Source: a virus (Duplodnaviria; Caudoviricetes). From it: a stretch of 64,000 nt of DNA. Under the pieces are notes generated by a model. The model was not told the origin of the DNA. It made no database searches and saw only the letters and a list, made by a program, of their open reading frames with translations. Location: positions 64,001 through 128,000 of IMG/VR virus record IMGVR_UViG_3300020577_008610. The stretch is one strand, 5' to 3'. Shown piece by piece: positions 25,395 through 64,000 of the stretch. Numbering within the stretch: the first letter of the stretch is position 1; the number at the start of each line of letters is the position of its first letter. The position numbers were made by a program, and so were the translations under genes.

Positions 25395-26321
25395 CTAAAT
25401 GCTGAGTTGCGCCCAGAAGAAGTCACCCCTGGAGCGGAGATAGGCTTCGCAATCCTCTGCTGAGGAAGCAAACCACTCGTCGTTCTTCTGGAGCACATTG
25501 TCGTTGACCATCACCTTCAGGCCCATCAGACGGGCCTCCAAGGTGACTCGGGGACAGGTGTCCTTGTCGAGCGGCATGAAGATGAACCCCTCGTACTGGC
25601 TGAGCCGCTGGAGGAAATCCTTGTACGGCAGGTTCGGGATGGGCTCGGACTTGAACTTCTTCAGATTGCACCACTTCTGGGTCTCGTCCACTCCCTTGAT
25701 CCAGGAGCCCGAGCCGAGGGTGGCCCAAACAGCCTTCCGCTCCCTTGGCTCCTGATTACGGTAGGAAGCCAGAAGGTCCAGGGTTTCGTCATCGAAGACA
25801 GAAGACAGGACGATATGGCCAGGGTGGTCAACCAGTTCAGGAACGTGACGGAGCCAGTGTCCTTTTTGCCCATAGGACATCCAGAAGATCCTCTCGGCTT
25901 TTCGGAAAAGCCGGACAACCATCAGGCCGTGCTTGTCCTTGGCGCAATTGCAAGACTCTCCTGTTGCTTGCTGGTGTCGGTTGGTGGATCTCCAGGCACA
26001 GAACTTGAAGTCGTACTCCACGATAGAGTAGCGAACCCCACTTTCAGGGAGGTACTGGATCATGGTCTCGTTCATGGCGGCAAAGTTGCCGAAGATCCAG
26101 TATTTGTCCTTGTTGGCGTCCAGAAGCTTCCGGGTAACCGAGACTGAGTGCAAGCGGAAGACCTTGTGGGGGCTCTTCTTGATGATGGCTTCAGAAGTCA
26201 GTTCGGCTCCTCCTGCAACCTCGCGAACAAAATAATCGTTGACAAAGACAACTTTTGCTGTCTTGGGAATGGCGTACTCCACCGGCATTCCAGTAAACAA
26301 ACTTCGACCTACTCCACTCAT
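25395..26321 (-). CDS. Glycosyltransferase-like protein (GT-B)
   Basis: GGAEL N-terminus; DTCPRVTLEARLMG. Confidence 0.7.
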   Translation of the reverse strand: MSGVGRSLFTGMPVEYAIPKTAKVVFVNDYFVREVAGGAELTSEAIIKKSPHKVFRLHSVSVTRKLLDANKDKYWIFGNFAAMNETMIQYLPESGVRYSIVEYDFKFCAWRSTNRHQQATGESCNCAKDKHGLMVVRLFRKAERIFWMSYGQKGHWLRHVPELVDHPGHIVLSSVFDDETLDLLASYRNQEPRERKAVWATLGSGSWIKGVDETQKWCNLKKFKSEPIPNLPYKDFLQRLSQYEGFIFMPLDKDTCPRVTLEARLMGLKVMVNDNVLQKNDEWFASSAEDCEAYLRSRGDFFWAQLSI

Positions 26322-28192
26322 GACTTTTTCTTTACCTTTTTGGTTTTCGAAATTTCCTCCACATCATGAAGAAGAACAATGGTCATGTCTTCGGTAGCCG
26401 ATTCTCCATATGGCTTCTTGTTCCTCCAGAGAATGTCCAAGAGTCCAAGCTCTCGGGCATGGTCAATCTCGCTCGTCAGGAAGACGCTGGCACAAGCATC
26501 AGGGAAAGGACGAAACTCTCCGGGTTTCCCATGAACATGATTGACCGAGATTACTGGCAATTCAACTCCAGGCTCTTGCCGTTTCTCATAAGGGAGAACT
26601 TTATACCGATTGCACTTCACTCCAATAATATCTCCCGGCTTCACTGAACGCATCCAAGCCAAGGTTTTCTCTCGGTCCATCACCAATTCGTTGCGTTCCA
26701 GCAGATCCATTTGTTCTTCAGAGAGCCGACTAAGCAGAGACATCATGGACTTGTTGTAATCGTAACCAGTAGAGCCCATGTAAAGGTGCTCGCGAGAATG
26801 CTGCTTTACCGGGACCTTAGATTTGATGAGTTCAACCCGTACCTTTTGGCCATTGTAGTCGATGATGTCGCCGTCTTTCAAACCCTTTTTCTTGCTTTCG
26901 TCTTTTAGCTCTTCGGTCATGTTCAATGTCTCCAATGGTTGAGTCGGAGGTTTTACTTTCATCATAGGCTCTGGGGAAGTGGTTTGCACACCAATCTTTA
27001 CCATCCAAAAGTTTCCTTTTCTGGTTCTTCTCTTCAAGAAGCCCAAAGAAAGAAGCTTCTTTGCCAACAGTTGTGACTTGTAAGTTGCAAATCGAACCAA
27101 GCCCTGGGACTTCAGAAATTCCTCTCGACAGGCTGAAACTTCTTGAAGTGTCATTGGTATTTCCAGCTCGGAGGTCTTTTTCAGTGTGTCAAAGAATTTC
27201 TTGTCGAAGGCTTCCAAGGTATCCAGCTCATAGTGGACTTTATGGCCATTTTTGGCCAACCAACCGAGGTATAACTCGTTGACTTTCTCGAAGGAGTTAT
27301 TGTAGGCAGGGTACCTCGAAACCGAGTTCACAATTCCCTCCAGTTCCAATTCGAAAGAGGTTGGGTCCTCAAAGCAACCCAGGTACTTCAAAGCCAAAGT
27401 CATCAGCTTCGCCTTGGTTGCCACCCCTCGGGCTCTGTCAGAGGAGAGCAATCGGTGCATTGTCGCATTCCGGACACCACAAGGGATCAACATCCCCATG
27501 GCCATCTTGTCCCGAATCATTGAAACGCTCATGGATTGCCAGAGCTTCGTCAGCTCTGAGGTTTCTTTGGGTACAACAGCAACCGGCCCGGGAGTTTTCT
27601 GTTCCTTAGCCTTGGTCTTTGCTGCCACGGCAATCTGAAGTTTCTTTCCCAGGAAATCAGGAACATCCTGGATGGTTGTGGTCTTCAGATCACAAGTAAA
27701 CTCGTACTTCTTCCCGCTTTTGTGGGTGCTGGGAGCAATCACCACAATACCACCAGAGCCTCGGATGTCCATCTTCTCGTCAACCAACTGACAGGAATTC
27801 TTTACAGGCACACTGGACCAATAAAGGGCGTGGTCTCCACCACCTCCACTCCGCTGAGTAACCGTGGTGCTGTGCCTCGCAAGCCTCTGGAGGAAGGGAT
27901 GAGACACAAGATCGCCATCAGCAACCACAAGGAACTTTCCTACGACAGAACTTTTTCTACCAGTACTCAGAGCCAAATTAACAGGCTTCTTTCCACCAAG
28001 CCAGGACATCACCCTCTTCGGATCCGTGGAAGCGATCATTTGCCACTTAGCCATCAGGGGATGTTTCCCAGGACTAGGACAGTTGCCGCCCTTTCTGCAA
28101 GTGCACTTTCCATCTAGGATGCCATGACAAGGAAGCAAAGGGATGTCAAGGGCACAGAAGTAATTAACGATTTCCTGCAAAGAGTTGCTCAT
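26318..28192 (-). CDS. Bifunctional primase/polymerase (Prim-Pol) domain protein
   Basis: CTC..C.SPGKHP; DGD; SGGGGDH; DIRGSGGIVVIAPS.H.SG..Y; start at MSNSL. Confidence 0.85.
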   Translation of the reverse strand: MSNSLQEIVNYFCALDIPLLPCHGILDGKCTCRKGGNCPSPGKHPLMAKWQMIASTDPKRVMSWLGGKKPVNLALSTGRKSSVVGKFLVVADGDLVSHPFLQRLARHSTTVTQRSGGGGDHALYWSSVPVKNSCQLVDEKMDIRGSGGIVVIAPSTHKSGKKYEFTCDLKTTTIQDVPDFLGKKLQIAVAAKTKAKEQKTPGPVAVVPKETSELTKLWQSMSVSMIRDKMAMGMLIPCGVRNATMHRLLSSDRARGVATKAKLMTLALKYLGCFEDPTSFELELEGIVNSVSRYPAYNNSFEKVNELYLGWLAKNGHKVHYELDTLEAFDKKFFDTLKKTSELEIPMTLQEVSACREEFLKSQGLVRFATYKSQLLAKKLLSLGFLKRRTRKGNFWMVKIGVQTTSPEPMMKVKPPTQPLETLNMTEELKDESKKKGLKDGDIIDYNGQKVRVELIKSKVPVKQHSREHLYMGSTGYDYNKSMMSLLSRLSEEQMDLLERNELVMDREKTLAWMRSVKPGDIIGVKCNRYKVLPYEKRQEPGVELPVISVNHVHGKPGEFRPFPDACASVFLTSEIDHARELGLLDILWRNKKPYGESATEDMTIVLLHDVEEISKTKKVKKKS

Positions 28193-28235
28193 GGAGAACC
28201 TACGAGTACCATATTTCAATCCTCTGTTTAACTTT

Positions 28236-28274
28236 TCTCTTCCCTCCCTCCCTCCCTCTTGGTTATCCTCCACG
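28236..28274 (+). repeat. Dispersed motif copy 1 (pyrimidine tract + TCTTGGTTATCCTCCACG)
   Basis: 18-nt core identical to the copies at 46.5 kb and 56.7 kb. Confidence 0.85.
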
Positions 28275-32621: not shown

Positions 32622-34985
32622 CTAGAGAATGGAAGCCGCAATAGTGGCCAACTTGCTTCGTTCACCTTTGGTTAAGGTGACGTGGCCAGAGAGGTCATAG
32701 GTTTTGAACTTCTCAATTGCCACGGTCAGGCCGTTAGACACTGAATCCACATACATATTGTCAATCTGCTCAATGTCCCCAGTCAGGACGATTTTGGTTC
32801 CATCACCCACACGAGTGATGATGGTCTTCAACTCATGAGCATTGAGGTTCTGCGCCTCATCAATGATCATGAAGGCATTGGCGATAGACCTACCACGGAT
32901 GTAGGTCATGGCTTCAACCTCGATGGTGCCATTCTCGAAGAGCATCTGGAGAGTCTCTTCGCCCCTCTTGCTCTTCTTGCCGTCAGCCGAAAGCAGGAAC
33001 CGGAGGTTGTCCTTGATCGGGGCAACCCATGGCTCCATCTTTTCCTCCAGAGTGTTATGGGTTACCACGAAATAGTCAGTAATATAAAGATGTTCCGGAT
33101 TGTCAACGAGAATGCACTGCATTTCAACTTTTTTTCCGGTTCTTTCAATCCCAACAATTCTTCGTCGGCGTTCCAGTTTGCGAAACTGGTAACGTTCACG
33201 CTTACGAGTTAGGCAGAACGGCTGGAACTGATCCTCCCAGAAGGATATGGAAATTGTGTATGCTCCTTTTAGTGCTGAGAACTTTGTATTGGCAGCTCCT
33301 CCGAGCGAGAAAACCAATTCCTTAAACCCATCTGCAAGGGCTTTAGAACAGGTTGTCAGGCTAACATCGGAACCATCTGCTGACACATAGCCATCTGTAT
33401 CCATTAGTCCTTGCAAGAGCGCAACCCTGTCTTGAATTGAGGCTGTCAGGTATTCAGCCGGGATGAATTTTGTGTACGAATTAGCCCCGGCAAGTCCGAG
33501 AGATTCTATTCCAGCTCGAACAATGTTGGAAACCCTTTTCTTTCGTCCAACATTGTCTGACATCACAAAAGACCAAGTTAAGCCCGACTTGTGACGCAAC
33601 ATTGCTCCACTCGGAAGAGAACGTTGAATCCTCTCTACGATTTCACTATCAGTAGAAGACAATTCAGTAGCATATCGCTGGGTTACACATCCATCACCAA
33701 GAATGGCGCCAAGGACATAAGGATCAATTGGAAGTTTGTGAACTGTCTGATACTCCACTGGTTTCACGTATTGCACAAAATGGTGCAGGTGTTCCTTTCC
33801 CGTAAGGAGATCAACTTCAATTTCCTTGGTTGACCGGGTTTTGGGAATTTCTTCGTGTGGCTTGTATGTGTTCCACGGATGGTCCTCGCAGCACTCAACT
33901 TCAGCTCCATCCTCAAAGATAAGCTTCAAAACCTCCTTTTGCCCTTTCGGAAAGACCTCCAGAACAGACGTTGGCTTACCATCCCGAGCAATCACCTGAT
34001 TACCCTTCTGGATTGCTCCCATTGTGGTCCACCCCGTCGGCGTTAATACCTTGGAGTAAAGTGGTTGAGGTCCCGGAAGAAATCCAATGTCTTTGCCCAA
34101 GGGCTGAATTGGACGGCACACGATGAGGCTCTTGTACCGCTTCTGGTCAATTACCTGATGGAGGCCAGCTGCAATGGCCAAGAGAGTCTTGCCGGTACCA
34201 GCAGAACCAACAATGGTCGCCAGGGAGATAGAAGGATCCATCAGAAGGTCGATGGCAAATTTCTGCTCCTTGTTTCTTCCTTCGATCTTTGAAGGTGCAA
34301 ACTCGGTGATTCCTTTGACCTTGCCACCCTTGTATCGCATGATGGCTGAAGACTCAGCTCCCTCCCTCTTTACAAGCAAGAACTGATTCTCGTAAAGGGC
34401 ACTCTTAACTTCTTCTGGAAGCTCTAAAACTCCTTCTCGATAAAACCTCTCTAGGTCATAGTCTCCAACCAAAGTAGTCTCGCCTGTGTACAAGCCAGAA
34501 ATAGACTCAGCCACATGTAGCTTTTTATAGTCATCAGCTAGAATGCCCAAAGCATGAGCCTTGAGTCGAAGTAAGATGTCCCTGGACACCAAGACCATCT
34601 CTGCGTCCGGGTTCTTTCGCTTGAAAGCCATACAGACCGCAAGAATCTGGTTGTCTCCAGATTTGCCTTCCAACTCCGATGGGATCAGTTCCTTCAGGTC
34701 TGAAAATCCAAGGGAGTTGAACGACAGAATCCGAAGCGACCCCTGACCTTCTCCAAGCGGAATAGGTTCATCAAATGCCTTGTGATCTTTTGTTATTTCC
34801 GTTAGCTTCCGAGAGGTCTCTCGGGCATGCCTACCCACTTCATCCTGACGGTCTTTGTGTCTGTCCAACTCCTCCAGGACAATCATAGGCAGAACCACGT
34901 CGTGCTCCTTGAAGGAGAACATGGCATTCGAGTCAGAGAGAAGAACGTTGGTGTCGAGGACAAAAGTTTTCTTGTTGTTGTTCAT
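32622..34985 (-). CDS. phoH: PIN-PhoH family protein containing an intein
   Basis: VLDTNVLL PIN domain; GSAGTGKT; IRGRS; IIDEAQN; TGDIEQID. Confidence 0.92.
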   Translation of the reverse strand: MNNNKKTFVLDTNVLLSDSNAMFSFKEHDVVLPMIVLEELDRHKDRQDEVGRHARETSRKLTEITKDHKAFDEPIPLGEGQGSLRILSFNSLGFSDLKELIPSELEGKSGDNQILAVCMAFKRKNPDAEMVLVSRDILLRLKAHALGILADDYKKLHVAESISGLYTGETTLVGDYDLERFYREGVLELPEEVKSALYENQFLLVKREGAESSAIMRYKGGKVKGITEFAPSKIEGRNKEQKFAIDLLMDPSISLATIVGSAGTGKTLLAIAAGLHQVIDQKRYKSLIVCRPIQPLGKDIGFLPGPQPLYSKVLTPTGWTTMGAIQKGNQVIARDGKPTSVLEVFPKGQKEVLKLIFEDGAEVECCEDHPWNTYKPHEEIPKTRSTKEIEVDLLTGKEHLHHFVQYVKPVEYQTVHKLPIDPYVLGAILGDGCVTQRYATELSSTDSEIVERIQRSLPSGAMLRHKSGLTWSFVMSDNVGRKKRVSNIVRAGIESLGLAGANSYTKFIPAEYLTASIQDRVALLQGLMDTDGYVSADGSDVSLTTCSKALADGFKELVFSLGGAANTKFSALKGAYTISISFWEDQFQPFCLTRKRERYQFRKLERRRRIVGIERTGKKVEMQCILVDNPEHLYITDYFVVTHNTLEEKMEPWVAPIKDNLRFLLSADGKKSKRGEETLQMLFENGTIEVEAMTYIRGRSIANAFMIIDEAQNLNAHELKTIITRVGDGTKIVLTGDIEQIDNMYVDSVSNGLTVAIEKFKTYDLSGHVTLTKGERSKLATIAASIL
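33054..34070 (-). mobile_element. Class 3 intein (339 aa) with LAGLIDADG endonuclease
   Basis: Begins PQP; W in DHPW, C in MQCI, T in VTHN|T; LGAILGDG and GLMDTDG. Confidence 0.9.
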
Positions 34986-42365: not shown

Positions 42366-42725
42366 CTAAATCCCCAGATTGTCCACTTTTGCTTCCTGAA
42401 CACTCGTCCATGGAAACCACAAAGGAGCGGAATCAGCCACAAGCAAAATACGGTAAATCAGGTAACAACCACCTCGCTTCACCATCACTTCATCAGCCCT
42501 GAAAGTATCCAGGGTAGAAGCATCCATCCACTCCAAAACCATCCCAAATAAGTCCTTTCCTCCATCCTCTGGGGCCACCAATGTCATCAGGTCCAAACTG
42601 GCCCATCCAGAAGGCCAATAAACTTGCTCCGATCTCCGATGCCCCTCAGCCTCCCAACGGTTGCTTATCGTGGTCCAGACAGTCTTCAGCTTCACCAAAG
42701 TGCCGACGGGGAAAGGATGCTCCAT
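42366..42725 (-). CDS. Small SH3-like beta-barrel protein
   Basis: FPVGTLVKL...GMVL...YRILL...LWF. Confidence 0.55.
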   Translation of the reverse strand: MEHPFPVGTLVKLKTVWTTISNRWEAEGHRRSEQVYWPSGWASLDLMTLVAPEDGGKDLFGMVLEWMDASTLDTFRADEVMVKRGGCYLIYRILLVADSAPLWFPWTSVQEAKVDNLGI

Positions 42726-45226: not shown

Positions 45227-45682
45227 ATGGACAAGGGCAGATTTGGTGATTATGCGTTGGTGACAGGGGAACCAACTCTTCTCAAGAGAAGGACCAAGAG
45301 GCAGAGACTTCGGATGTGGGAGGGAGGGAGGGAAGTCAGGATGAAGAAGCCGAGACTTAGAGATTCCAGGCCCATGGACACCAGAAAGATGAAAGAGGAA
45401 AAGGTTCCTCGAAAGGGCAAGCTTTATTGCGTTGGGAAGTTGCATAAGGAAACAAGCCAAGAAGATTTTGGTCCAATTCCCCTTTTGTCAACTCGGGAGC
45501 ATGACACAACGCTAGCGGGGCATCCTGCGAAGGCCAGAGAATGGATTGCTGAGATTTGGGGTGGGGAGACAGTTTTGTTTTTGGGGACTGAAGAGAAGGG
45601 GCGATACTGGTTGGTGGGGTACCAAGACATGTTTGGCTGCCTGGAGGTTGGGAAGGTAATTTTCTTGAACCCGATGAAGTAA
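45227..45682 (+). CDS. SH3-like family protein
   Basis: RKGKLY...GGETVLFLG...WLVGYQDMFGCL. Confidence 0.6.
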   Translation: MDKGRFGDYALVTGEPTLLKRRTKRQRLRMWEGGREVRMKKPRLRDSRPMDTRKMKEEKVPRKGKLYCVGKLHKETSQEDFGPIPLLSTREHDTTLAGHPAKAREWIAEIWGGETVLFLGTEEKGRYWLVGYQDMFGCLEVGKVIFLNPMK

Positions 45683-46026
45683 TGGTTATGACAATGGGGA
45701 TGTTTAACACGACCTGCGTTCCTTACTGGCCCAAAAGCGACTATAAACCTGGGAAACTCTACCGGATCAAGGATTACCCGTGGCATCTTTTCACAGTTTG
45801 GTCAGCATATGAGGGAGGCAATTCTGCTTACCCTAAGAGGTTGTTTGATGTGGATGCTAACACCGAAGAGTGCTTTCTTTACATCAAGTTCGTCCCGGAG
45901 GAAGAGGAACAAGGCCTTGAGGCTCTCCACCTTGTAATTTTCAGGGATACTGTTGGTGTGATTGATGGAAGAATGGAGTTGGAGGAGCTTATTTCTCCGG
46001 AGGATGGTTCTCATGAGCCGCCATGA
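45682..46026 (+). CDS. SH3-like family protein
   Basis: KPGKLYRI...FLYI...LVIFRDTVGVI. Confidence 0.65.
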   Translation: MVMTMGMFNTTCVPYWPKSDYKPGKLYRIKDYPWHLFTVWSAYEGGNSAYPKRLFDVDANTEECFLYIKFVPEEEEQGLEALHLVIFRDTVGVIDGRMELEELISPEDGSHEPP

Positions 46027-46456
46027 TGATTTCTTCTATCGACAGAAACCAGACCTTTCTACTGCTGAGAAGGAGAAGCCCAAGATTCCAGCCAACATTC
46101 GAAAGGGGATGTTGGTTTGCGTTAAAGTCAGCAACAGCTCTTCCGTTGATCTGTCTCAGGTGGACGTGGACGGGACGGAGCTTCACCGGTTTCATTTTTT
46201 GTCCCCTCAGGAGTCTTGGGAGCAAGCATTCATGGTGGTTCGAGTTGGGAAGTTTCGGACCTTCATGGATGTCTTGTGGGGCGATGAGATATGGAGAATC
46301 TTACCAAGGGAGAACCTTGCCATCATCCCGGTGACCGTAAGTAGCAGAGCGAGAAAGGAGTCCCTACCAGATGAAAAGGCCGGTAATCCCTATGGTTTCT
46401 CTGACGAAGAGATGGAGACCTGGGTTAAGAATGGTAGACTGGGGGATATAGGATAG
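46013..46456 (+). CDS. SH3-like family protein
   Basis: RKGMLVCV...FMVV...DVLWGDEIWRI. Confidence 0.6.
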   Translation: MSRHDDFFYRQKPDLSTAEKEKPKIPANIRKGMLVCVKVSNSSSVDLSQVDVDGTELHRFHFLSPQESWEQAFMVVRVGKFRTFMDVLWGDEIWRILPRENLAIIPVTVSSRARKESLPDEKAGNPYGFSDEEMETWVKNGRLGDIG

Positions 46457-46468
46457 GTCCTTTCCTAA

Positions 46469-46515
46469 CTCTCTTTTCCTCCCTCCTCTTGGTTATCCTC
46501 CACGCTTTTGGGATA
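46469..46515 (+). repeat. Dispersed motif copy 2
   Basis: Pyrimidine tract + TCTTGGTTATCCTCCACGCTTTTGGGATA. Confidence 0.85.
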
Positions 46516-46559
46516 TTCGACAGAGCAGGAAGAATGTGTTATTCTTGAAGGAGGTATTC

Positions 46560-46976
46560 ATGGCGAAGTGGATCATGAAGGGAGACTTGGTGAAATTTCA
46601 GGTTATTTCTCAGTACCCGAGGCCCTCAGTCTTATTAGCTTTATGGGCTCCGAAACATCGGTTTGACTGGCGGAGTATGTATTCGAAACCTCGGATTGCC
46701 CTGGAGTGTAACAAAATCTACACTGGGCTGGTTGTGGACACCTACTTGGTTAGCAGGAGTCGGCACGTTGAGAACTCCTTCAAGCCCACTGCTAAGATGC
46801 AGCCGGGAAAGGATCAGCGGTACCTTCAGGAGATCAGCAAAGAGCGTGTCTACCACGTTCTGTCAGAAGACATGATCTTGTTCGTCCGGGCCAGTGACCT
46901 TGGCTTTTCCAATGCAAATGGCTTCCGGTGGGAAATGAGGGTTATTCAAAAAGGGAAAGCCCATGAAAGGAGGTAG
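46560..46976 (+). CDS. SH3-like family protein
   Basis: GGAGGT RBS; KGDLVKF...GLVV...YHVLSEDMILFV. Confidence 0.6.
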   Translation: MAKWIMKGDLVKFQVISQYPRPSVLLALWAPKHRFDWRSMYSKPRIALECNKIYTGLVVDTYLVSRSRHVENSFKPTAKMQPGKDQRYLQEISKERVYHVLSEDMILFVRASDLGFSNANGFRWEMRVIQKGKAHERR

Positions 46977-47151
46977 TTTTGTCACACTCACAGAGCCAAT
47001 CATTTACCGGAAATAGTTCCTTGTGTAGCTCTAGCAGAGTCGGTGGCGCTGTGGCAACCCTGGAGGGTCTGCTTGTTCTCTTGCTGGATGAAGCGACTAG
47101 TGTGTCCAGGTTAGATTTTCACATGGTGTTTGATAGGATGCAGGGAAGGAC

Positions 47152-47448
47152 ATGCCTCACTTAAAACAAGGGAAGCTGTATCGGTTCAAGTGTTGCGGGT
47201 GTTTATTCAAAGAGGCAGAGGGTGAAAAGGTTATTGGGATGGTTAACAAGGAAGATGTGCTGATGTTCATTGAACAAAGCACAGAAGTGCCTTACGTTTA
47301 CAAGGTGCTTTCTGGAGACCAAGCGGGCTGGCTGTGTGCTTATCTGGATTGCTTTGAGGAGCTAACCGATGCCGAAGAAGTTGGAAAAGGGGAAGCTATA
47401 CCGAACCAAGCAGATTCAAGTTCTCATGAAAACCCATTACAAAAGTAA
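47152..47448 (+). CDS. SH3-like family protein
   Basis: KQGKLYRF...VLMFI...YKVLSGDQAGWL. Confidence 0.7.
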   Translation: MPHLKQGKLYRFKCCGCLFKEAEGEKVIGMVNKEDVLMFIEQSTEVPYVYKVLSGDQAGWLCAYLDCFEELTDAEEVGKGEAIPNQADSSSHENPLQK

Positions 47449-47611
47449 CGGCAAACTCGCTACAATTCCGCCTCAATCTATTGTGTGTTTCCTTGGACAC
47501 CACGCTTCCAACCACTGGATTATCCAGGTGGTTTACGGCGAACTGATTGGCTGGTTATTTTTGGAGAAAAATTCGTTGGACGCTTTGTTCACGAAACCAA
47601 AGGGATTATAG
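47369..47611 (+). CDS. SH3-like family protein
   Basis: EKGKLYRT...IPPQSIVCFLG...QVVYGELIGWL. Confidence 0.7.
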   Translation: MPKKLEKGKLYRTKQIQVLMKTHYKSNGKLATIPPQSIVCFLGHHASNHWIIQVVYGELIGWLFLEKNSLDALFTKPKGL

Positions 47612-47615
47612 CATC

Positions 47616-47936
47616 ATGAAGAAGTTGGAGCCGGGTAAATTCTACCTGACCCGAGAGGGGCACAATCTTTGGAAAACGGATAGGAGTGGTGCAAATCGCG
47701 TCAGGAACCAGGTACTGACAATCTTGCTGCCTGGGACAATGGTTTTGTTTACCAGGTTCGGAAAATTCCGTTACATTCAAGTTGTATTCGAAGATGTTGT
47801 CGGCTATATCTGGTGCAACACCAACATATCGATGCACGATCACCTGGAGCCAGTAACAGAGGAGAACCTGGAAGAGCTCCAAGAGGCCATGAAGGCAGAC
47901 AGCGGATGGAGGCCACGCCATCATATCCGATCTTGA
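47616..47936 (+). CDS. SH3-like family protein
   Basis: EPGKFYLT...LPGTMVLF...QVVFEDVVGYI. Confidence 0.7.
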   Translation: MKKLEPGKFYLTREGHNLWKTDRSGANRVRNQVLTILLPGTMVLFTRFGKFRYIQVVFEDVVGYIWCNTNISMHDHLEPVTEENLEELQEAMKADSGWRPRHHIRS

Positions 47937-47964
47937 TAAAATCCATCCCTGGGAGCCGGGGACG

Positions 47965-48153
47965 ATGGTAAAGACCTGCGGGAATGACATCCCTTTGTTC
48001 AAGACCTCCCGAGCTGGCTCTTTTGCTTTTCTGCAAATCCCTCCTGGAGAGTTGGTGATGTATGTTGATTGTGAGGCCAACCGTATGTGTAAGGTGATTT
48101 ACGGTGAGAACATCGGGTGGACCTATTCCGATGCTGTGACAACCCCTCGTTGA
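47965..48153 (+). CDS. SH3-like family protein (true start probably upstream)
   Basis: (WEPGT)MVKT...IPPGELVMYV...KVIYGENIGWT. Confidence 0.65.
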   Translation: MVKTCGNDIPLFKTSRAGSFAFLQIPPGELVMYVDCEANRMCKVIYGENIGWTYSDAVTTPR

Positions 48154-48167
48154 CTTGAGAAGTTTTC

Positions 48168-48575
48168 GTGTTTAACCACATTCCCATGTCTGACAGGCTA
48201 AGTCGTGGAGTCTTGCGAAATGGCAAGAAACAGATTATCAGGGCCAACCGGAGAAACAGGTTGGCCAACAAGTTGAAGCGAGGAAAACTTTACACTTTCC
48301 TTGCGGCGAGCGCAACCCAGGCCATTTACGCTACGCCCAATATAATGGGGAAGGTGATTGGCTGCCTTCCAGACAAGGCCACGGTGATGTGCGTTGACCC
48401 TACACCCTTCCTTTATAAGAACCGGAAGACTTACCTGGATTGCTTTGACAACTGCTGGATGATGTTCTACATTGGCTATGGGGAGCTTTTCGGGTATGTG
48501 GCTTGCCACTACAGCGAAGCAGCAGAAGAAGAGGAATTTCAGGCACACAGGTTCTTCAAGCGAGTCTATGCTTAA
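48168..48575 (+). CDS. SH3-like family protein
   Basis: KRGKLYTF...LPDKATVMCV...IGYGELFGYV. Confidence 0.7.
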   Translation: MFNHIPMSDRLSRGVLRNGKKQIIRANRRNRLANKLKRGKLYTFLAASATQAIYATPNIMGKVIGCLPDKATVMCVDPTPFLYKNRKTYLDCFDNCWMMFYIGYGELFGYVACHYSEAAEEEEFQAHRFFKRVYA

Positions 48576-48578
48576 GGC

Positions 48579-49025
48579 ATGACCGTTGTTATGCCTCAAA
48601 GATTCCGGAAGGGTGAAGTCTTCTGCTACGTCAGCTCTTTTGACTCTTCCTTGCCCGTGTGTGCCAAGGATGAGACAGGAAGGTTCATCCGCCTTCACGA
48701 GAACCCTGTGAACTGGCTGGCTCAAGGCCATGAGCTGTTTCACAAGGTACCCGGCAAGAAGCCCTGCTTTGGGTTTGTGTGCGAGTACGACCCGATGTGC
48801 CTCGTGGTTCATGCCGGTTCCGAGTGGAATGAATTTGAGCAACATGCCTTCTTTGGCATCCTCTTTGTGGACTCACATCCTCACATGATCCGAATTGAAG
48901 ACAATGACCCACATCTTTGGAAGGTCATTGACCCTGAGCAAGAACTGATCCAAAACTGCAAGGGAGACATCACGACGCCATCAAAAGCTCTCCATGACTC
49001 CATGGCACAACTTCACCCCGCTTAA
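48579..49025 (+). CDS. Hypothetical protein, possibly SH3-like
   Basis: FRKGEVFCY N-terminal motif. Confidence 0.55.
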   Translation: MTVVMPQRFRKGEVFCYVSSFDSSLPVCAKDETGRFIRLHENPVNWLAQGHELFHKVPGKKPCFGFVCEYDPMCLVVHAGSEWNEFEQHAFFGILFVDSHPHMIRIEDNDPHLWKVIDPEQELIQNCKGDITTPSKALHDSMAQLHPA

Positions 49026-49094
49026 GGCTCTACCTTCAGGGCTCTACCTTCAGGGCTCTACCTTCAGGGCTCTACCTTCAGGGCTCTACCTTCA
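49026..49094. repeat. Tandem repeat, 5 x 14 bp (GGCTCTACCTTCAG)
   Basis: Four perfect units plus 13 nt of a fifth. Confidence 0.97.
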
Positions 49095-49413
49095 CCAGTT
49101 TGCCATAAATGTGGCGGATTTGAACGTAGCCATTTACGTGCCCCTTGTTGTTCGAAATCTGGTATCTCTTGTCCTTCGGGGCTCCTTTGGAACCTCCCGT
49201 AACGGCACTCAGGAGGTGCAAGAATTGCCTTCCTTCCACCGTGCATAGCACAACATCACCTGGGGCCAAAGAAGCTTCTGGAGGGCTTCCCAGGGGCTCC
49301 ACGGTGCAGAGCTGACCAGACTTAATTCTTGGCTGCATCGAATTTCCGTGAGGTCTGAACCTCACGGTCTCCCCAGCCTTTAACCTCTCAATATAGTGAC
49401 TTGCCCATCCCAT
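49078..49413 (-). CDS. S24/S26 peptidase-like protein
   Basis: GNSMQPRIKSGQ; PGDVVLC; FLHL. Confidence 0.7.
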   Translation of the reverse strand: MGWASHYIERLKAGETVRFRPHGNSMQPRIKSGQLCTVEPLGSPPEASLAPGDVVLCTVEGRQFLHLLSAVTGGSKGAPKDKRYQISNNKGHVNGYVQIRHIYGKLVKVEP

Positions 49414-51616: not shown

Positions 51617-52087
51617 TCATGGATTCCCCAGGGTCATCTCAAGCAGTTCCTTTTCCCCAATACAGGCTGTCCCGTAGCTTTGGGCTTTCTCTGCTTTAGT
51701 GCTATAGCTATTTGGGCTTCTCATCACGAGGTAGGTGAGATTCTTGGTTACTCGGGGAGAATAAGTACCGCCGTGAAGCTCAACAAGAGCTTTATAGAAC
51801 TCACGAGTGTGTTTTAGAGCACCCGTGAAGCAAAAGCTCTTTCCCGAGAGCTTCTCTGATATTTCAGCCGCGATGTACTGTCGTTTGTCCACCACCCATG
51901 TCATTTCTCCGTGAATTATATGGAGGGTCCATTCAGACCCTCCGCCTACACAGAGTACAGCGGTGCCTGCCGGGATTGAGACCGATTGGTTTATGTGATA
52001 CCCGCTTTCTACTTTGTCAATGTTTACGGCATAGGCCGTATGCCTGTTCTTTGCTAGCAGAATCTTGCCCTTCATGCTCATCACCAA
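51617..52087 (-). CDS. SH3-like domain fused to a BRCT domain
   Basis: IPAGTAVLCV...IIHGEMTWV then LSGKSFCFTGAL..R...VTKNLTYLV...K.EKA. Confidence 0.8.
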   Translation of the reverse strand: MVMSMKGKILLAKNRHTAYAVNIDKVESGYHINQSVSIPAGTAVLCVGGGSEWTLHIIHGEMTWVVDKRQYIAAEISEKLSGKSFCFTGALKHTREFYKALVELHGGTYSPRVTKNLTYLVMRSPNSYSTKAEKAQSYGTACIGEKELLEMTLGNP

Positions 52088-54780: not shown

Positions 54781-55101
54781 ATGAGGGTCCTTCGTCTGGA
54801 CATTGGTGAACTTCCCGAACCAGGGAAGTTTTACCTCTGCAAGAACCACGAACTCAAGGTCTATAAGGACTTGCATGTCCTGGAGGAAGAACACGGGGAG
54901 GAAGATGAGCCTCCGGTTTGTGGTGTCATTCCCAAGGGACAGCTCTTCCTGTATGCCAAGGTGGCTCGCGAACAGAGAATCCCAGGCCAAATCAAGAAGG
55001 TCTGGTTCTATGTGGCCTTCGGGGAAATGTCCGGAATCATCTACAACGGACAGATTCCTTTTCATCAGCTTCTGCTGAAAGTACAGGAAGATGAGGGATG
55101 A
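54781..55101 (+). CDS. SH3-like family protein
   Basis: EPGKFYLC...IPKGQLFLY...YVAFGEMSGII. Confidence 0.7.
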   Translation: MRVLRLDIGELPEPGKFYLCKNHELKVYKDLHVLEEEHGEEDEPPVCGVIPKGQLFLYAKVAREQRIPGQIKKVWFYVAFGEMSGIIYNGQIPFHQLLLKVQEDEG

Positions 55102-60315: not shown

Positions 60316-60660
60316 TTGCCGATGCCCTTCTACAAAGTTATCCCGGATTCAGGTGCAACGGCCTTGAAGCCAATCCTGGTTGACCGCAAAGAAACCACAG
60401 GAGGCAAGAAATATCACTCAAACTTCGAGCTGGAAGGGCAGAACAAAGCCAAGTTCCAAATTGCTCGCATTCACAGCATTCCTCAAGGAACCATGGGTCT
60501 TTACCTGGGAACTGACTTCTCTTACAGGATTGGCCATCCGGAAGACAAAATCCCGATGATTGAATTGCTTGTTGGGGAAGAGCGGTTGTATTTCTATGCT
60601 GCCCATGTTAGGCTTGTCACACCCGAAGAAATTGAATCCTTGAAGGAAGAACCGAAATGA
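60316..60660 (+). CDS. SH3-like family protein
   Basis: IPQGTMGLYLG...IELLVGEERLYF. Confidence 0.6.
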   Translation: MPMPFYKVIPDSGATALKPILVDRKETTGGKKYHSNFELEGQNKAKFQIARIHSIPQGTMGLYLGTDFSYRIGHPEDKIPMIELLVGEERLYFYAAHVRLVTPEEIESLKEEPK

Positions 60661-63246: not shown

Positions 63247-63628
63247 ACTCACCGAAGAAGAGAAGGCTATGACTCTGGAGGAGTTTGAGGATCAGCAAGA
63301 GAAGATAGACCGTCCGCCGGATATCCAGGATGAGAATAGAAATTGGGTCTGTGGTGAGTGCAAGGATCGGCACCTGGATTCTTGTAAGATTTACCAGCAT
63401 TTCCGAAGATGGTATGAAAAGCTGACTCAGGAGAACGAGAAGGCTCAAAATCAGCCACGCCCTGAGTGGATGTGTTCGGGATGTGACGAACCCAAGGAAG
63501 GGCCTCATCGATTCTCCTGTTATGCGAGTGAAACCAAAGCAAATCAACTGACGGTTTCGGCAACTCAGAAAGAGGATGGGACGTTTATGACCCATCTTTC
63601 AGGGACAGACCTATCTTTAAAAGGGTGA
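63236..63628 (+). CDS. Protein with two C..C/H.C zinc-finger-like units
   Basis: WVCGEC..H..C and WMCSGC..H..C. Confidence 0.6.
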   Translation: MTIELTEEEKAMTLEEFEDQQEKIDRPPDIQDENRNWVCGECKDRHLDSCKIYQHFRRWYEKLTQENEKAQNQPRPEWMCSGCDEPKEGPHRFSCYASETKANQLTVSATQKEDGTFMTHLSGTDLSLKG

Positions 63629-64000
63629 GCTATACCACCCTTCAAACCAAACTGGCAAAGCTAAAGAATGGGGACCGACTTCCCCTAGACATGCTACGAG
63701 AGCTTGCTGACTGTAACCCTCATTGGTCTTTTTATAAAGGGAAACAGCAATTCAAGCTGGCGGATCATATTTCCCTTGTCTCTGAGTTCAGATTTCGGAG
63801 GTGGACCGAGAGCACCCAGAAGACAGATGGCTCGTGGAACTTCCATGAGGCCAAGGGGAACCTGACGTTCAAGGATGGCACCAAAGCTACCGTTCACTTC
63901 GACCAATCCAGCTTTTACAAGATGGACGTTTTGGGTTCCAGATACAGGAGCACTTATTTCAGTCTTTTGAAGCCTGGAAAGTTGGCTATTGTGGCCGAAG
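63625..64000 (+). CDS. Hypothetical protein (partial, runs off window)
   Basis: GTGA overlap; frame open to the window end. Confidence 0.55.
   Translation, partial: MSYTTLQTKLAKLKNGDRLPLDMLRELADCNPHWSFYKGKQQFKLADHISLVSEFRFRRWTESTQKTDGSWNFHEAKGNLTFKDGTKATVHFDQSSFYKMDVLGSRYRSTYFSLLKPGKLAIVAE

What the first reader, a model, noticed from the sequence alone, without database searches (positions are those of the whole stretch)
45227..49025. Tandem array of about ten divergent single-domain SH3-like genes, with further copies across the early region
Seen: most ORFs in 45.2-48.6 kb share a three-part signature, x(K/P)GK(L/F)Y ... (I/L)PxGxxVhhh ... hxVh(Y/F)G(E/D)xxG(W/Y)h (e.g. QVVYGELIGWL, KVIYGENIGWT, KVLSGDQAGWL, IGYGELFGYV, QVVFEDVVGYI), with very different loops and no obvious DNA identity. 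Related ORFs lie at 42366, 42756, 51617 (fused to BRCT), 54781 and 60316. Known: this pattern resembles SH3b-type beta barrels. Inference: an old, diversified paralogue expansion of about 14 small binding modules with a fixed scaffold and variable loops, perhaps a repertoire of host-takeover or anti-defence binders. No signal peptides are visible, which argues against ordinary cell-wall-binding SH3b. This is my best candidate for an undescribed system.
Basis: partly seen in the sequence, partly recalled or inferred. Interest (0 to 1): 0.8.

Follow-up and report, generated by a model that had tools for sequence, protein, structure and literature searches.

The report
Phage array of small SH3b-like genes
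An uncultured T4-like jumbo phage carries a tandem cluster of small, old, diverged genes that all encode one bacterial-SH3-type barrel with no signal peptide or enzyme domain; they are probably binding modules for host takeover or counter-defence, but nothing here tests their function.

Summary
The window is bases 64001-128000 of a 189-kb IMG/VR phage record with a gp23-type capsid.

- **Members in the flagged stretch:** seven of the ten + strand ORFs in 45.2-49.0 kb belong to one family. They start at 45227/45341, 45682, 47152, 47369, 47616, 47965 and 48168.
- **Other members:** 54781-55101 in the window, and genome positions 128139 and 165553 outside it.
- **Probable members:** the N-domain of the BRCT protein (51617-52087, - strand) and the C-terminal domain of the ORF that crosses the window end.
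- **Not linked:** ORFs 45962, 46536, 48579, 42366 and 42756. ORF 60316 is only possible.
- **Fold:** an AlphaFold2 model (pLDDT 88) best matches the SH3b domains of NlpC/P60 peptidases and endolysins (Z 9.2 and 8.2). The family profile hits bacterial multi-SH3_3 proteins (E 2e-24). No member reaches Pfam's SH3_3 cut-off, and none matches a PHROG.
- **Real genes:** dN/dS is 0.11-0.50. There are no hydrophobic segments.
- **Old duplications:** the gene order is conserved in a distant 318-kb phage contig, while copy content differs between relatives.

Function is untested. This scan has noted similar SH3-like mini-protein arrays in other phages, from unrelated sequence families, so this is a new variant of a recurring kind.

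The parts
45227..45682 (+). Family member c1. The ORF opens at 45227; the real start is probably an internal Met near 45314-45341, because orthologues are 101-107 aa.
   Evidence: Profile E 8.2e-5 with a profile that excluded it and 1.5e-14 after iteration. dN/dS 0.27-0.36. Orthologue gene lengths.
45682..46026 (+). Family member c2, with an acidic C-terminal tail. Its start overlaps the c1 stop by 1 nt.
   Evidence: Profile E 2.1e-4 and 3.1e-15 after iteration. dN/dS 0.27-0.50.
45962..46456 (+). Array ORF c3. A real conserved gene, but not shown to be a family member.
   Evidence: hhalign probability 1.2%. Iterated search finds only its own orthologues. dN/dS 0.32.
46536..46976 (+). Array ORF c4 (probable start 46560). 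A real conserved gene, but not shown to be a family member.
   Evidence: hhalign probability 2.5%. Iterated search finds only its own orthologues. dN/dS 0.30-0.41. The atlas feature search was uninformative.
46967..47161 (+). Remnant of the N-terminal half-domain that is fused to c5 in related phages. In the window a 52-nt deletion cuts it off.
   Evidence: DNA alignment with L006, L007 and L010. BLASTP to the two-domain orthologues. The relatives' protein gives two profile hits.
47152..47448 (+). Family member c5 (98 aa, acidic tail). Overlaps c6 by 80 nt.
   Evidence: E 2e-23. dN/dS 0.32-0.43.
47369..47611 (+). Family member c6 (80 aa). This is the protein that was modelled.
   Evidence: AF2 pLDDT 88.3, pTM 0.75, six strands and a short helix. 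SH3b matches at Z 9.2 and 8.2. Atlas TM 0.64-0.74 to SH3_3 proteins. dN/dS 0.11-0.21.
47616..47936 (+). Family member c7 (106 aa).
   Evidence: E 2e-25. dN/dS 0.17-0.23.
47893..48153 (+). Family member c8. Its only ATG is at 47965, but the conserved first-strand motif (WEPGT) lies upstream in the same frame.
   Evidence: (E 6e-21). Mostly synonymous differences upstream of the ATG, and an ATG in L010 where the window has ATA. dN/dS 0.12-0.15.
48168..48575 (+). Family member c9, with a basic N-terminal tail and a long loop insert. The insert includes a 6-residue piece that appears to be copied from c5.
   Evidence: E 4e-21. dN/dS 0.15-0.19. An 18-of-19-nt match between 48430-48448 and 47339-47357 lies exactly at an indel relative to orthologues.
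48579..49025 (+). Array ORF c10 (148 aa). A conserved gene in every related locus, but membership and fold are unresolved.
   Evidence: hhalign against the family 0.4%. AF2 pLDDT 69. Best structural Z is 3.7, and the list holds mostly small SH3-like barrels, all at noise level. dN/dS 0.19-0.27.
51617..52087 (-). Fusion protein: a probable family-type SH3b-like N-domain (about residues 1-75) followed by a BRCT domain.
   Evidence: Pfam BRCT E 1.1e-14. N-domain hhalign against the family 88.8%, E 2.5e-6. dN/dS 0.15-0.29. The same fusion is present in L006, L007, L010 and L012.
54781..55101 (+). Dispersed family member (106 aa) with an acidic loop insert.
   Evidence: Profile E 3.4e-3 at the second iteration. 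After it was added to the family alignments, E 7e-23 (built-in) and 6e-17. Eight orthologue clusters were found.
60316..60660 (+). Possible, unproven divergent member.
   Evidence: hhalign 5.9%, E 0.0064, 52 columns in the right register. Not recovered by the HMM search.
63625..64000 (+). ORF that runs off the window end (frame open from 63532 to 64230). Its C-terminal domain, which starts near 63964, is a probable member. The next gene, 64139-64522 just outside the window, is a firm member.
   Evidence: hhalign 67%, E 5e-5. The neighbour scores E 7.5e-8 with the five-member profile.

Best explanation
Shown:
- The cluster is a lineage-specific multigene family of stand-alone proteins of about 60-130 residues. 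Each is a single bacterial-type SH3 (SH3b, SH3_3-like) beta-barrel.
- None carries a signal peptide, a membrane segment or an enzyme domain.
- The family arose by old tandem duplications in the non-structural, accessory part of a clade of uncultured T4-like jumbo phages.
- Each paralogue is kept under purifying selection. Relatives gain, lose, truncate and fuse copies.

Inferred:
- The conserved strands form a fixed scaffold.
- The length-variable loops and the charged tails give each copy its own target.
- The proteins therefore act in the host cytoplasm as small binding modules, as inhibitors or adaptors, during host takeover or counter-defence.
- The same module is also used as a targeting domain fused to BRCT.
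- New loop variants may arise partly by copying short pieces between paralogues.
For: Family reality: searches give profile E-values far below every reversed or shuffled decoy.

Fold and homology:
- The c6 model has pLDDT 88.3.
- Best matches are 2evr_A (Z 9.2, rmsd 2.1 over 68 residues) and 4krt_B (Z 8.2), and the rest of the list is SH3 or SH3-like domains.
- Atlas neighbours are nearly all SH3_3 or SH3b-named proteins, TM 0.64-0.74.
- The exhaustive profile search returns 416 hits, led by proteins with 3-11 SH3_3 repeats.
- SH3_3 is the only Pfam family hit by more than one member. The only PDB sequence hits are SH3_3 domains.

Cytoplasmic and non-enzymatic: no Pfam or PHROG domain, no hydrophobic segment, and pI from 4.6 to 9.9.

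Real genes: dN/dS 0.11-0.50.

Old duplication with flux:
- Each paralogue has its own orthologue clade.
- The order c5 to c9 is conserved in the 318-kb contig L012.
- In fetched loci of 10-20 kb, the profile recovers 7, 9, 11 and 9 member ORFs in L006, L007, L010 and L012.
- A 52-nt deletion truncates c5 in the window.

Scaffold against loops: family-wide entropy is 0.1-1.6 bits at G8, Y11, L19, V54, E58 and G61, against 3.3-3.9 bits in the loops. All large insertions fall in four loop positions.

Module reuse: the BRCT fusion.

Context: neighbours include EndoVII, a GmrSD_N-like protein and an S24-like protein. In L012 a Lar restriction-alleviation gene sits next to the BRCT fusion.

Precedent: the phage counter-defence protein Nip is predicted to hold two SH3-like domains and forms a complex with the defence protein SpbK (PMC11984713).
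Against: No binding partner, expression time or phenotype is known, and the host is unidentified. The context is circumstantial: accessory regions of large phages hold genes of many functions. The closest homologues, SH3_3 domains, usually bind peptidoglycan rather than cytoplasmic proteins. Only one member was modelled with confidence. Three interleaved ORFs (45962, 46536, 48579) could not be tied to the family, so the array is not homogeneous. The loop-copying idea rests on a single event.
Confidence: 0.5

Rival explanations
1. [quoted passage not shown] On this reading they tune mRNA stability or translation during infection.
For: [quoted passage not shown] This phage is T4-like by capsid. 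Some members are strongly basic, with pI 9.6-9.9 and an R/K-rich N-tail in c9. GoF begins with a KWYQFK-type motif that aligns with the family's first strand.
Against: hhalign of the family against GoF gives 8.6% over 26 columns, and against MotB.1 0.5%. The structural neighbours are SH3b domains, and no Hfq or Sm protein appears in the listed rows. Several members are acidic, pI 4.6-5.5. The wild-type function of GoF itself is unknown.
Confidence: 0.15
2. They are classical cell-wall-binding SH3b modules. On this reading they are auxiliary lysis or entry factors that bind host peptidoglycan, acting alone or with an endolysin or a virion hydrolase.
For: The nearest sequence and structural relatives are SH3_3 domains of endolysins, NlpC/P60 peptidases and autolysins. 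Stand-alone SH3 proteins have been proposed as lysis-module parts in T1-like phages (PMC13164509).
Against: No signal peptide or membrane anchor. No lysis gene was recognised beside the array, and a Phage_lysozyme search of the record found nothing, although the record is only a fragment. Seven to eleven diverged copies, plus a fusion to BRCT, an intracellular domain, fit poorly with one polymer as target.
Confidence: 0.12
3. They are structural or assembly accessories, such as decoration proteins, packaged proteins or chaperones, rather than host-directed effectors.
For: SH3-like barrels occur in tail and head accessory proteins; one of the BFVD neighbours is annotated as a tail protein. In the fragment L014 a small array sits beside a gp19-like tail-tube gene.
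Against: In the window the array lies in the + strand block of small accessory genes, away from the - strand block at 79-35426. Which genes in that block are structural was not tested here. Copy content varies between close relatives, which is unusual for structural parts.
Confidence: 0.06
4. The copies are decaying or selfish duplicates with no maintained function.
For: There is evidence of truncation (the 52-nt deletion in c5), a missing canonical start for c8 and loss of copies between relatives.
Against: dN/dS is 0.11-0.50 for every ORF across three relatives. Orthologue clades persist into a phage whose c10-type protein is only 44% identical.
Confidence: 0.03

Closest known systems
Bacterial SH3 domain, Pfam SH3_3 (PF08239, SH3 clan), as in the phiSM101 endolysin (PDB 4krt) and cyanobacterial NlpC/P60 endopeptidases (PDB 2evr, 2hbw)
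   Same: Same barrel: Z 9.2 and 8.2, rmsd about 2 A over 63-68 residues. Motifs are shared and in register: hG-x-hP-x-G-x-hV followed by W/h-x-kV-x-y-G-x-x-GWh. The family profile hits multi-SH3_3 proteins at E down to 2e-24.
   Different: No member reaches the Pfam cut-off (best E 0.005), and the SH3_3 model finds nothing in the whole record. The proteins stand alone, with no signal peptide and no hydrolase domain. They have their own N-terminal L-x-x-G-K-(L/F/W)-Y strand. They are tandemly expanded in a phage accessory region.
[quoted passage not shown]
   Same: Small early or accessory proteins of T4-type phages. They have an SH3-topology N-terminal barrel, variable C-terminal parts and very dissimilar sequences, and their function is unknown.
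   Different: No demonstrable sequence relation: hhalign 8.6% and 0.5%. The T4 set is three dispersed genes, not a tandem array of seven or more. The T4 proteins' neighbours are FeoA and Hfq-like folds, whereas here they are SH3b domains.
Stand-alone SH3 protein (DUF7244) of the Drexlerviridae lysis module (PMC13164509)
   Same: A stand-alone SH3-clan protein in a phage, found by structure-based annotation, with untested function.
   Different: It is a single-copy gene, always beside the holin, endolysin and spanin genes. Here there are many copies, no lysis genes nearby and no Pfam hit to that family.
Nip, the phi3T counter-defence protein against SpbK (PMC11984713)
   Same: A phage protein predicted to be built on SH3-like domains that neutralises a defence protein by binding it. 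This is the mechanism proposed here.
   Different: Nip is a 279-residue protein with two SH3-like domains and an HU-like dimerisation domain. It comes from temperate Bacillus phages, and no sequence relation was tested or is claimed.
Arrays of SH3-like mini-proteins noted by this scan in other large phages (e1-124077, e1-5382638, e1-316931, e1-263792)
   Same: Tandem, diverged, small SH3-like paralogues in accessory regions, with copy content that differs between relatives and unknown function.
   Different: These are AI notes that I did not check. A word-based sequence look-up found no shared sequence with this family. Those notes name eukaryotic-type SH3 or KOW domains as closest, whereas here the closest are clearly SH3_3-type.

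Membership tests
Pfam SH3_3 (PF08239) | Score at or above the curated gathering cut-off (27 bits) | tested here: not met
   No hit for the ten array ORFs at E up to 1. 4 of 37 family sequences hit below the cut-off, best E 0.0053. The model finds nothing in the 189-kb record at E up to 1.
Pfam SH3_3 (PF08239) | SH3b beta-barrel fold | tested here: met
   c6 model pLDDT 88.3. 2evr_A Z 9.2, 4krt_B Z 8.2. Atlas neighbours are SH3_3 proteins at TM 0.64-0.74. Only one member was modelled with confidence.
Pfam SH3_3 (PF08239) | Detectable sequence homology to accepted members | tested here: met
   The seven-member profile hits proteins that Pfam scores as 3-9 SH3_3 repeats, at E 2e-24 to 1e-10. The full-length scores sum several weak repeats. 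The PDB sequence hits are both SH3_3 domains but weak, E 0.7-0.9.
Pfam SH3_3 (PF08239) | Usual setting: secreted or wall-associated, joined to a hydrolase or in repeats | tested here: not met
   Single domain, with no hydrophobic leader and no catalytic domain.
Pfam SH3_3 (PF08239) | Binds peptidoglycan | not testable with these tools
   Needs binding assays with host sacculi, and the host is unknown.
T4 GoF/MotB.1/Frd.2 LSm-like family | Profile-level sequence relation to GoF or MotB.1 | tested here: inconclusive
   hhalign of the family against the single T4 sequences gives GoF 8.6% (26 columns at the N-terminus) and MotB.1 0.5%. Frd.2 and deep alignments of the T4 families were not tested.
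T4 GoF/MotB.1/Frd.2 LSm-like family | N-terminal five-stranded bent sheet with a variable C-terminal part, in a T4-type phage | tested here: met
   Barrel followed by variable acidic or basic tails. gp23-type capsid. This is a resemblance in kind, not proof of membership.
DUF7244 stand-alone SH3 of T1-like lysis modules | Pfam match and position next to the holin-endolysin-spanin cassette | tested here: not met
   No Pfam match. The neighbours are nucleases, BRCT and small ORFs, with no recognised lysis gene. The record is a fragment, so the lysis genes may lie elsewhere.
Sm/LSm (Hfq-like) | Sm motifs and ring oligomers | not tested
   No oligomer prediction was run. No Hfq or Sm chain is among the listed structural rows, which does not exclude the family.

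The most novel reading that the evidence does not exclude
The array is a phage-borne repertoire of target-specific binders on one SH3b scaffold. Each paralogue would neutralise a different host protein or defence system. New specificities would be made by duplication, loop indels and short templated transfers between paralogues, as in the c5-to-c9 'YLDCF' graft. Fusion to effector domains such as BRCT would add further functions.
Probability: 0.2. Interest if true: 0.8.

Novelty: new variant of a known kind. Interest (0 to 1): 0.5.

Why it matters
Most genes of large phages are small ORFs of unknown function. This work gives a fold, a family definition and a copy map to at least ten such ORFs in one phage. 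It also covers at least 32 clusters (at 50% identity) of short proteins, under 200 residues, among the 150 listed hits in public metagenomes; their genomic origin was checked for only a few.

It shows that the bacterial wall-binding SH3 domain has been taken over as a stand-alone cytoplasmic module and expanded. If the copies are target-specific inhibitors, they would be a compact source of new counter-defence or host-takeover proteins, and a natural small binding scaffold.

The recurrence of SH3-like mini-protein arrays in unrelated large phages, noted elsewhere in this scan, suggests a general strategy that deserves one proper experimental study.

Tried and rejected
- **DNA search of the array against deposited phages:** no match. 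tblastn of c7 against the same collection: no match.
- **Related loci in viral contigs:** The single-protein query found nothing.
- **PHROGs:** no family at E up to 0.01 for the ten ORFs, and no PHROG is shared by more than one of 37 members at E up to 1.
- **Nearest deposited capsid relatives:** the family profile found nothing in Microcystis phage Mel-JY01, Flavobacterium phage immuto, or the huge phages LR756508 and LR756511. The tool itself warns that an empty answer without a positive control shows little.
- **ORFs 45962, 46536 and 48579:** HMM iteration, hhalign and atlas feature searches gave no link. Only four close homologues of 48579 exist in the large protein collection.
- **Model of 48579:** mediocre (pLDDT 69), and its structural matches (Z at most 3.7) are at noise level, so its fold stays open.
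- **Foldseek for c6:** no match at E up to 0.001 against PDB or BFVD, although the top rows are SH3 domains.
- **T4 GoF and MotB.1:** no convincing profile relation.
- **Promoter and terminator scan:** counts are at the shuffle level. The motif MTAHTTA, suggested in another note, is not enriched and not placed before the array genes.
it holds no mention of SH3 or paralogues, so I do not use it as support.
- **Complex prediction:** not run, because no specific binding pair is claimed.

Full report
**Setting.** The window is bases 64001-128000 of a single 189,179-base IMG/VR virus record, which CheckV rates 48% complete. The record has a gp23-type major capsid gene. Its nearest deposited relatives are only distant: Microcystis phage Mel-JY01 (33% identity), Flavobacterium immuto phages (46%) and two huge uncultured phages (48% and 38%). 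It is therefore an uncultured T4-like large phage of unknown host. Most large ORFs in window 79-35426 are on the - strand. From about 36 kb on, the window holds many small ORFs on both strands, together with EndoVII, a GmrSD_N-like protein, an S24-like protein and a BRCT protein.

- Pairwise BLASTP links c5 to c9 directly, at E 3e-6 to 5e-4.
- A profile of those five, run on all six-frame ORFs of the whole record, picked up genome 128139-128522 at 7.5e-8. That ORF lies 139 nt past the window end.
- With reversed and shuffled decoys added, 54781-55101 reached 3.4e-3.
- An exhaustive profile search and a word-indexed search of public proteins then supplied outside relatives. From these I built a 37-sequence alignment, A3, that contains neither c1 nor c2.
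- That profile recovered c1 (8e-5), c2 (2e-4) and genome 165553-165918 (3e-4), against a best decoy of 0.14.
- After iteration with ORFs from related loci, the nine strongest own-genome members score at or below 1.5e-14 and no decoy is included.

**What does not belong.** c3, c4, c10, 42366 and the ORFs around 42756 are not recovered by HMM, by iterated searches started from their own orthologue groups, or by hhalign, where probabilities are at most 2.5%. Window 60316 aligns in the right register but only at 5.9%.

The N-domain of the BRCT protein (51617-52087, - strand) was aligned with four orthologues and matches the family at 88.8%, E 2.5e-6. The C-terminal domain of the ORF that crosses the window end scores 67%, genome 174831 scores 27%, and genome 165553 scores 93%.

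The record therefore holds ten firm members, two probable and two possible.

**Are they genes?** Every one of the ten ORFs, and the BRCT fusion, has orthologues at 60-95% identity in syntenic loci from other metagenomes: L006, L007, L010 and L011. Pairwise dN/dS is 0.11-0.50 throughout. They are real protein-coding genes under purifying selection, and this includes the three non-members.

**Fold and homology.**
- Pfam and PHROGs give nothing for the ten ORFs.
- The c6 model built with A3 is confident, with pLDDT 88.3 and pTM 0.75. It has six strands and a short C-terminal helix.
- An exhaustive structural alignment against 48,161 PDB representatives puts SH3b domains first. These are the N-terminal domain of a Nostoc NlpC/P60 endopeptidase (2evr_A, Z 9.2, rmsd 2.1 A, 68 residues) and the SH3_3 domain of the phiSM101 endolysin (4krt_B, Z 8.2, rmsd 1.9 A). 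NlpC1, lysostaphin and other SH3 or SH3-like domains follow.
- Foldseek E-values are not significant, with a best of 0.07, although its top rows are the same proteins at TM 0.69-0.70.
- The nearest ESM Atlas shapes are nearly all SH3_3 or SH3b-named proteins, at TM 0.64-0.74 and rmsd 2.0-2.5 A.
- Independently of structure, the seven-member profile finds 416 proteins at E up to 1e-3 among 1.84 billion representatives. The best are long bacterial proteins matched in 4-11 stretches, which Pfam scores as multi-repeat SH3_3 proteins, some carrying M23 or glucosaminidase domains.
- In the other direction, SH3_3 is the only Pfam family hit by more than one of the 37 members (4 members, best E 0.005), always below the cut-off. 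The Pfam model finds nothing in the whole record.
- The only PDB sequence hits, at E 0.7-0.9, are two SH3_3 domains, aligned across the shared motifs.

The family is thus a remote, uncatalogued branch of the bacterial SH3 superfamily. It has the SH3b fold but fails Pfam's own membership threshold.

**Anatomy.** Aligned to the family model, G8, Y11, L19, V54, E58 and G61 (c6 numbering) and the alternating hydrophobic strand positions are conserved family-wide, at 0.1-1.6 bits of entropy. The loop positions are near-random between paralogues (3.3-3.9 bits) and moderately conserved within each orthologue clade (about 1.0-1.7 bits). All large insertions fall at four loop positions.

No member has a hydrophobic stretch: the highest 19-residue Kyte-Doolittle mean is 1.34. 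pI ranges from 4.6 to 9.9. Several members carry acidic C-terminal tails, and c9 carries a basic N-terminal tail. The proteins are therefore soluble, cytoplasmic and heterogeneous in charge.

**Age and dynamics.** In a tree of 88 domains, each window paralogue sits in its own clade together with orthologues from other contigs. The 318-kb contig L012 has a c10-type protein that is only 44% identical, yet it carries c5-, c6-, c7-, c8- and c9-type genes in the same order at its positions 2-1968. It also carries a 54781-type gene and the BRCT fusion. The duplications therefore predate the split of these phages.

Content still changes between relatives:
- In fetched loci of 10-20 kb, the profile recovers 7, 9, 11 and 9 member ORFs in L006, L007, L010 and L012.
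- L010 has a member between c4 and c5 that the window lacks.
- c5 is a two-domain protein in the relatives. In the window a 52-nt deletion cuts it down to the single barrel and leaves the remnant ORF 46967-47161.

An AT-rich fragment from another T4-like phage, L014, which lies beside a gp19-like gene, has two significant tandem members and a cut third frame at the contig end. The four nearest deposited capsid relatives gave no match. Among the 150 best representatives, 32 are proteins under 200 residues. That is at least 32 clusters at 50% identity. None of those for which a source name or Pfam annotation was returned carries one.

**A small mechanistic clue.** At the DNA level the paralogues share almost nothing, with one striking exception. 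A 19-nt stretch in c9 (48430-48448) matches c5 (47339-47357) at 18 of 19 positions. In c9 it encodes the residues YLDCF, which form an insertion absent from every orthologue, including one that is 98% identical. In c5 the same residues are conserved among orthologues. By my estimate, about 0.002 such matches are expected by chance in 4.2 kb. This looks like a short templated transfer from c5 into a variable loop of c9. It is a single event, so I treat it as a lead on how loops diversify, not as a rule.

**Function.** Nothing here tests function. The most likely reading, at about 0.5, is that these are cytoplasmic binding modules used in host takeover or counter-defence. The reasons are:
- a binding fold with no catalytic domain;
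- many diverged copies, each kept by selection;
- variable loops on a fixed scaffold;
- reuse of the module as a fusion partner of BRCT;
- an accessory neighbourhood with nucleases, and, in L012, a Lar restriction-alleviation gene;
- the precedent of Nip, a phage counter-defence protein predicted to contain two SH3-like domains, which binds its target defence protein (PMC11984713).

The rivals are as follows.
[quoted passage not shown] These are the best published analogue in kind, but show no demonstrable homology.
- Classical wall-binding SH3b accessories, as proposed for T1-like phages (PMC13164509). Against this, there is no export signal, there are many copies, there is a BRCT fusion, and no lysis gene lies nearby.
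- Structural accessories.
- Decaying duplicates, which the dN/dS values argue against.

**Novelty.** The fold and superfamily are known, and stand-alone SH3-like phage proteins are in the literature. What is new is this particular family. It has no Pfam or PHROG entry, and the source annotations returned for relatives give only 'hypothetical protein' or nothing. Its clear SH3_3 ancestry, its tandem expansion to ten or more copies, and its BRCT fusion are also new.

Earlier notes of this scan describe similar arrays of SH3-like mini-proteins in other large phages. A sequence look-up found no shared sequence with them. The theme therefore recurs, and this is a further, independent instance. I rate it a new variant of a known kind, of moderate interest.

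Noticed in passing
window 48430-48448 and 47339-47357: The loop of c9 carries a 6-residue insertion (TYLDCF) that is absent from all orthologues. Its DNA matches c5 at 18 of 19 positions, and in c5 the same residues are conserved. This looks like a short templated transfer between paralogues.
   Followed up: partly
window 47893-47965: c8's only ATG (47965) lies after its conserved first-strand motif. The 30 nt upstream differ from L010 mostly at synonymous positions in the c8 frame. L010 has ATG where the window, L006 and L007 have ATA (47923). The start codon, or start mechanism, of c8 in this phage is unexplained.
   Followed up: partly
window 46930-47200: A 52-nt deletion and a 1-nt insertion, relative to L006, L007 and L010, remove the link between an N-terminal half-domain and the c5 barrel. 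They leave a 65-codon remnant frame at 46967-47161.
   Followed up: yes
window 49012-49109: A tandem repeat of a 14-nt unit (GGCTCTACCTTCAG, about five to six copies) sits directly after the c10 stop, where the + strand array meets the - strand S24-like gene 49078-49413.
   Followed up: no
window 47369-47448; L006, L007, L010, L012: Neighbouring array genes overlap: c5 and c6 by 80 nt in the window. Open frames of neighbours overlap by 46-122 nt in L012, and these are upper bounds because real starts may lie later. An overlap of similar size is seen in all related loci.
   Followed up: no
window 32622-34985 (- strand): A PIN-PhoH fusion protein is interrupted by a LAGLIDADG/Hom_end segment, which looks like an intein or homing-endonuclease insertion.
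   Followed up: no
window 26318-28273 (- strand): A 651-residue protein with a Prim-Pol domain lies among the - strand genes. Its nearest deposited relatives match only over part of its length, at 24-33% identity.
   Followed up: no
L012 4549-5243: In the distant 318-kb phage, the SH3b-like-BRCT fusion gene lies directly next to a Lar-type restriction-alleviation gene, with a CYTH-domain gene about 1.1 kb away.
   Followed up: no
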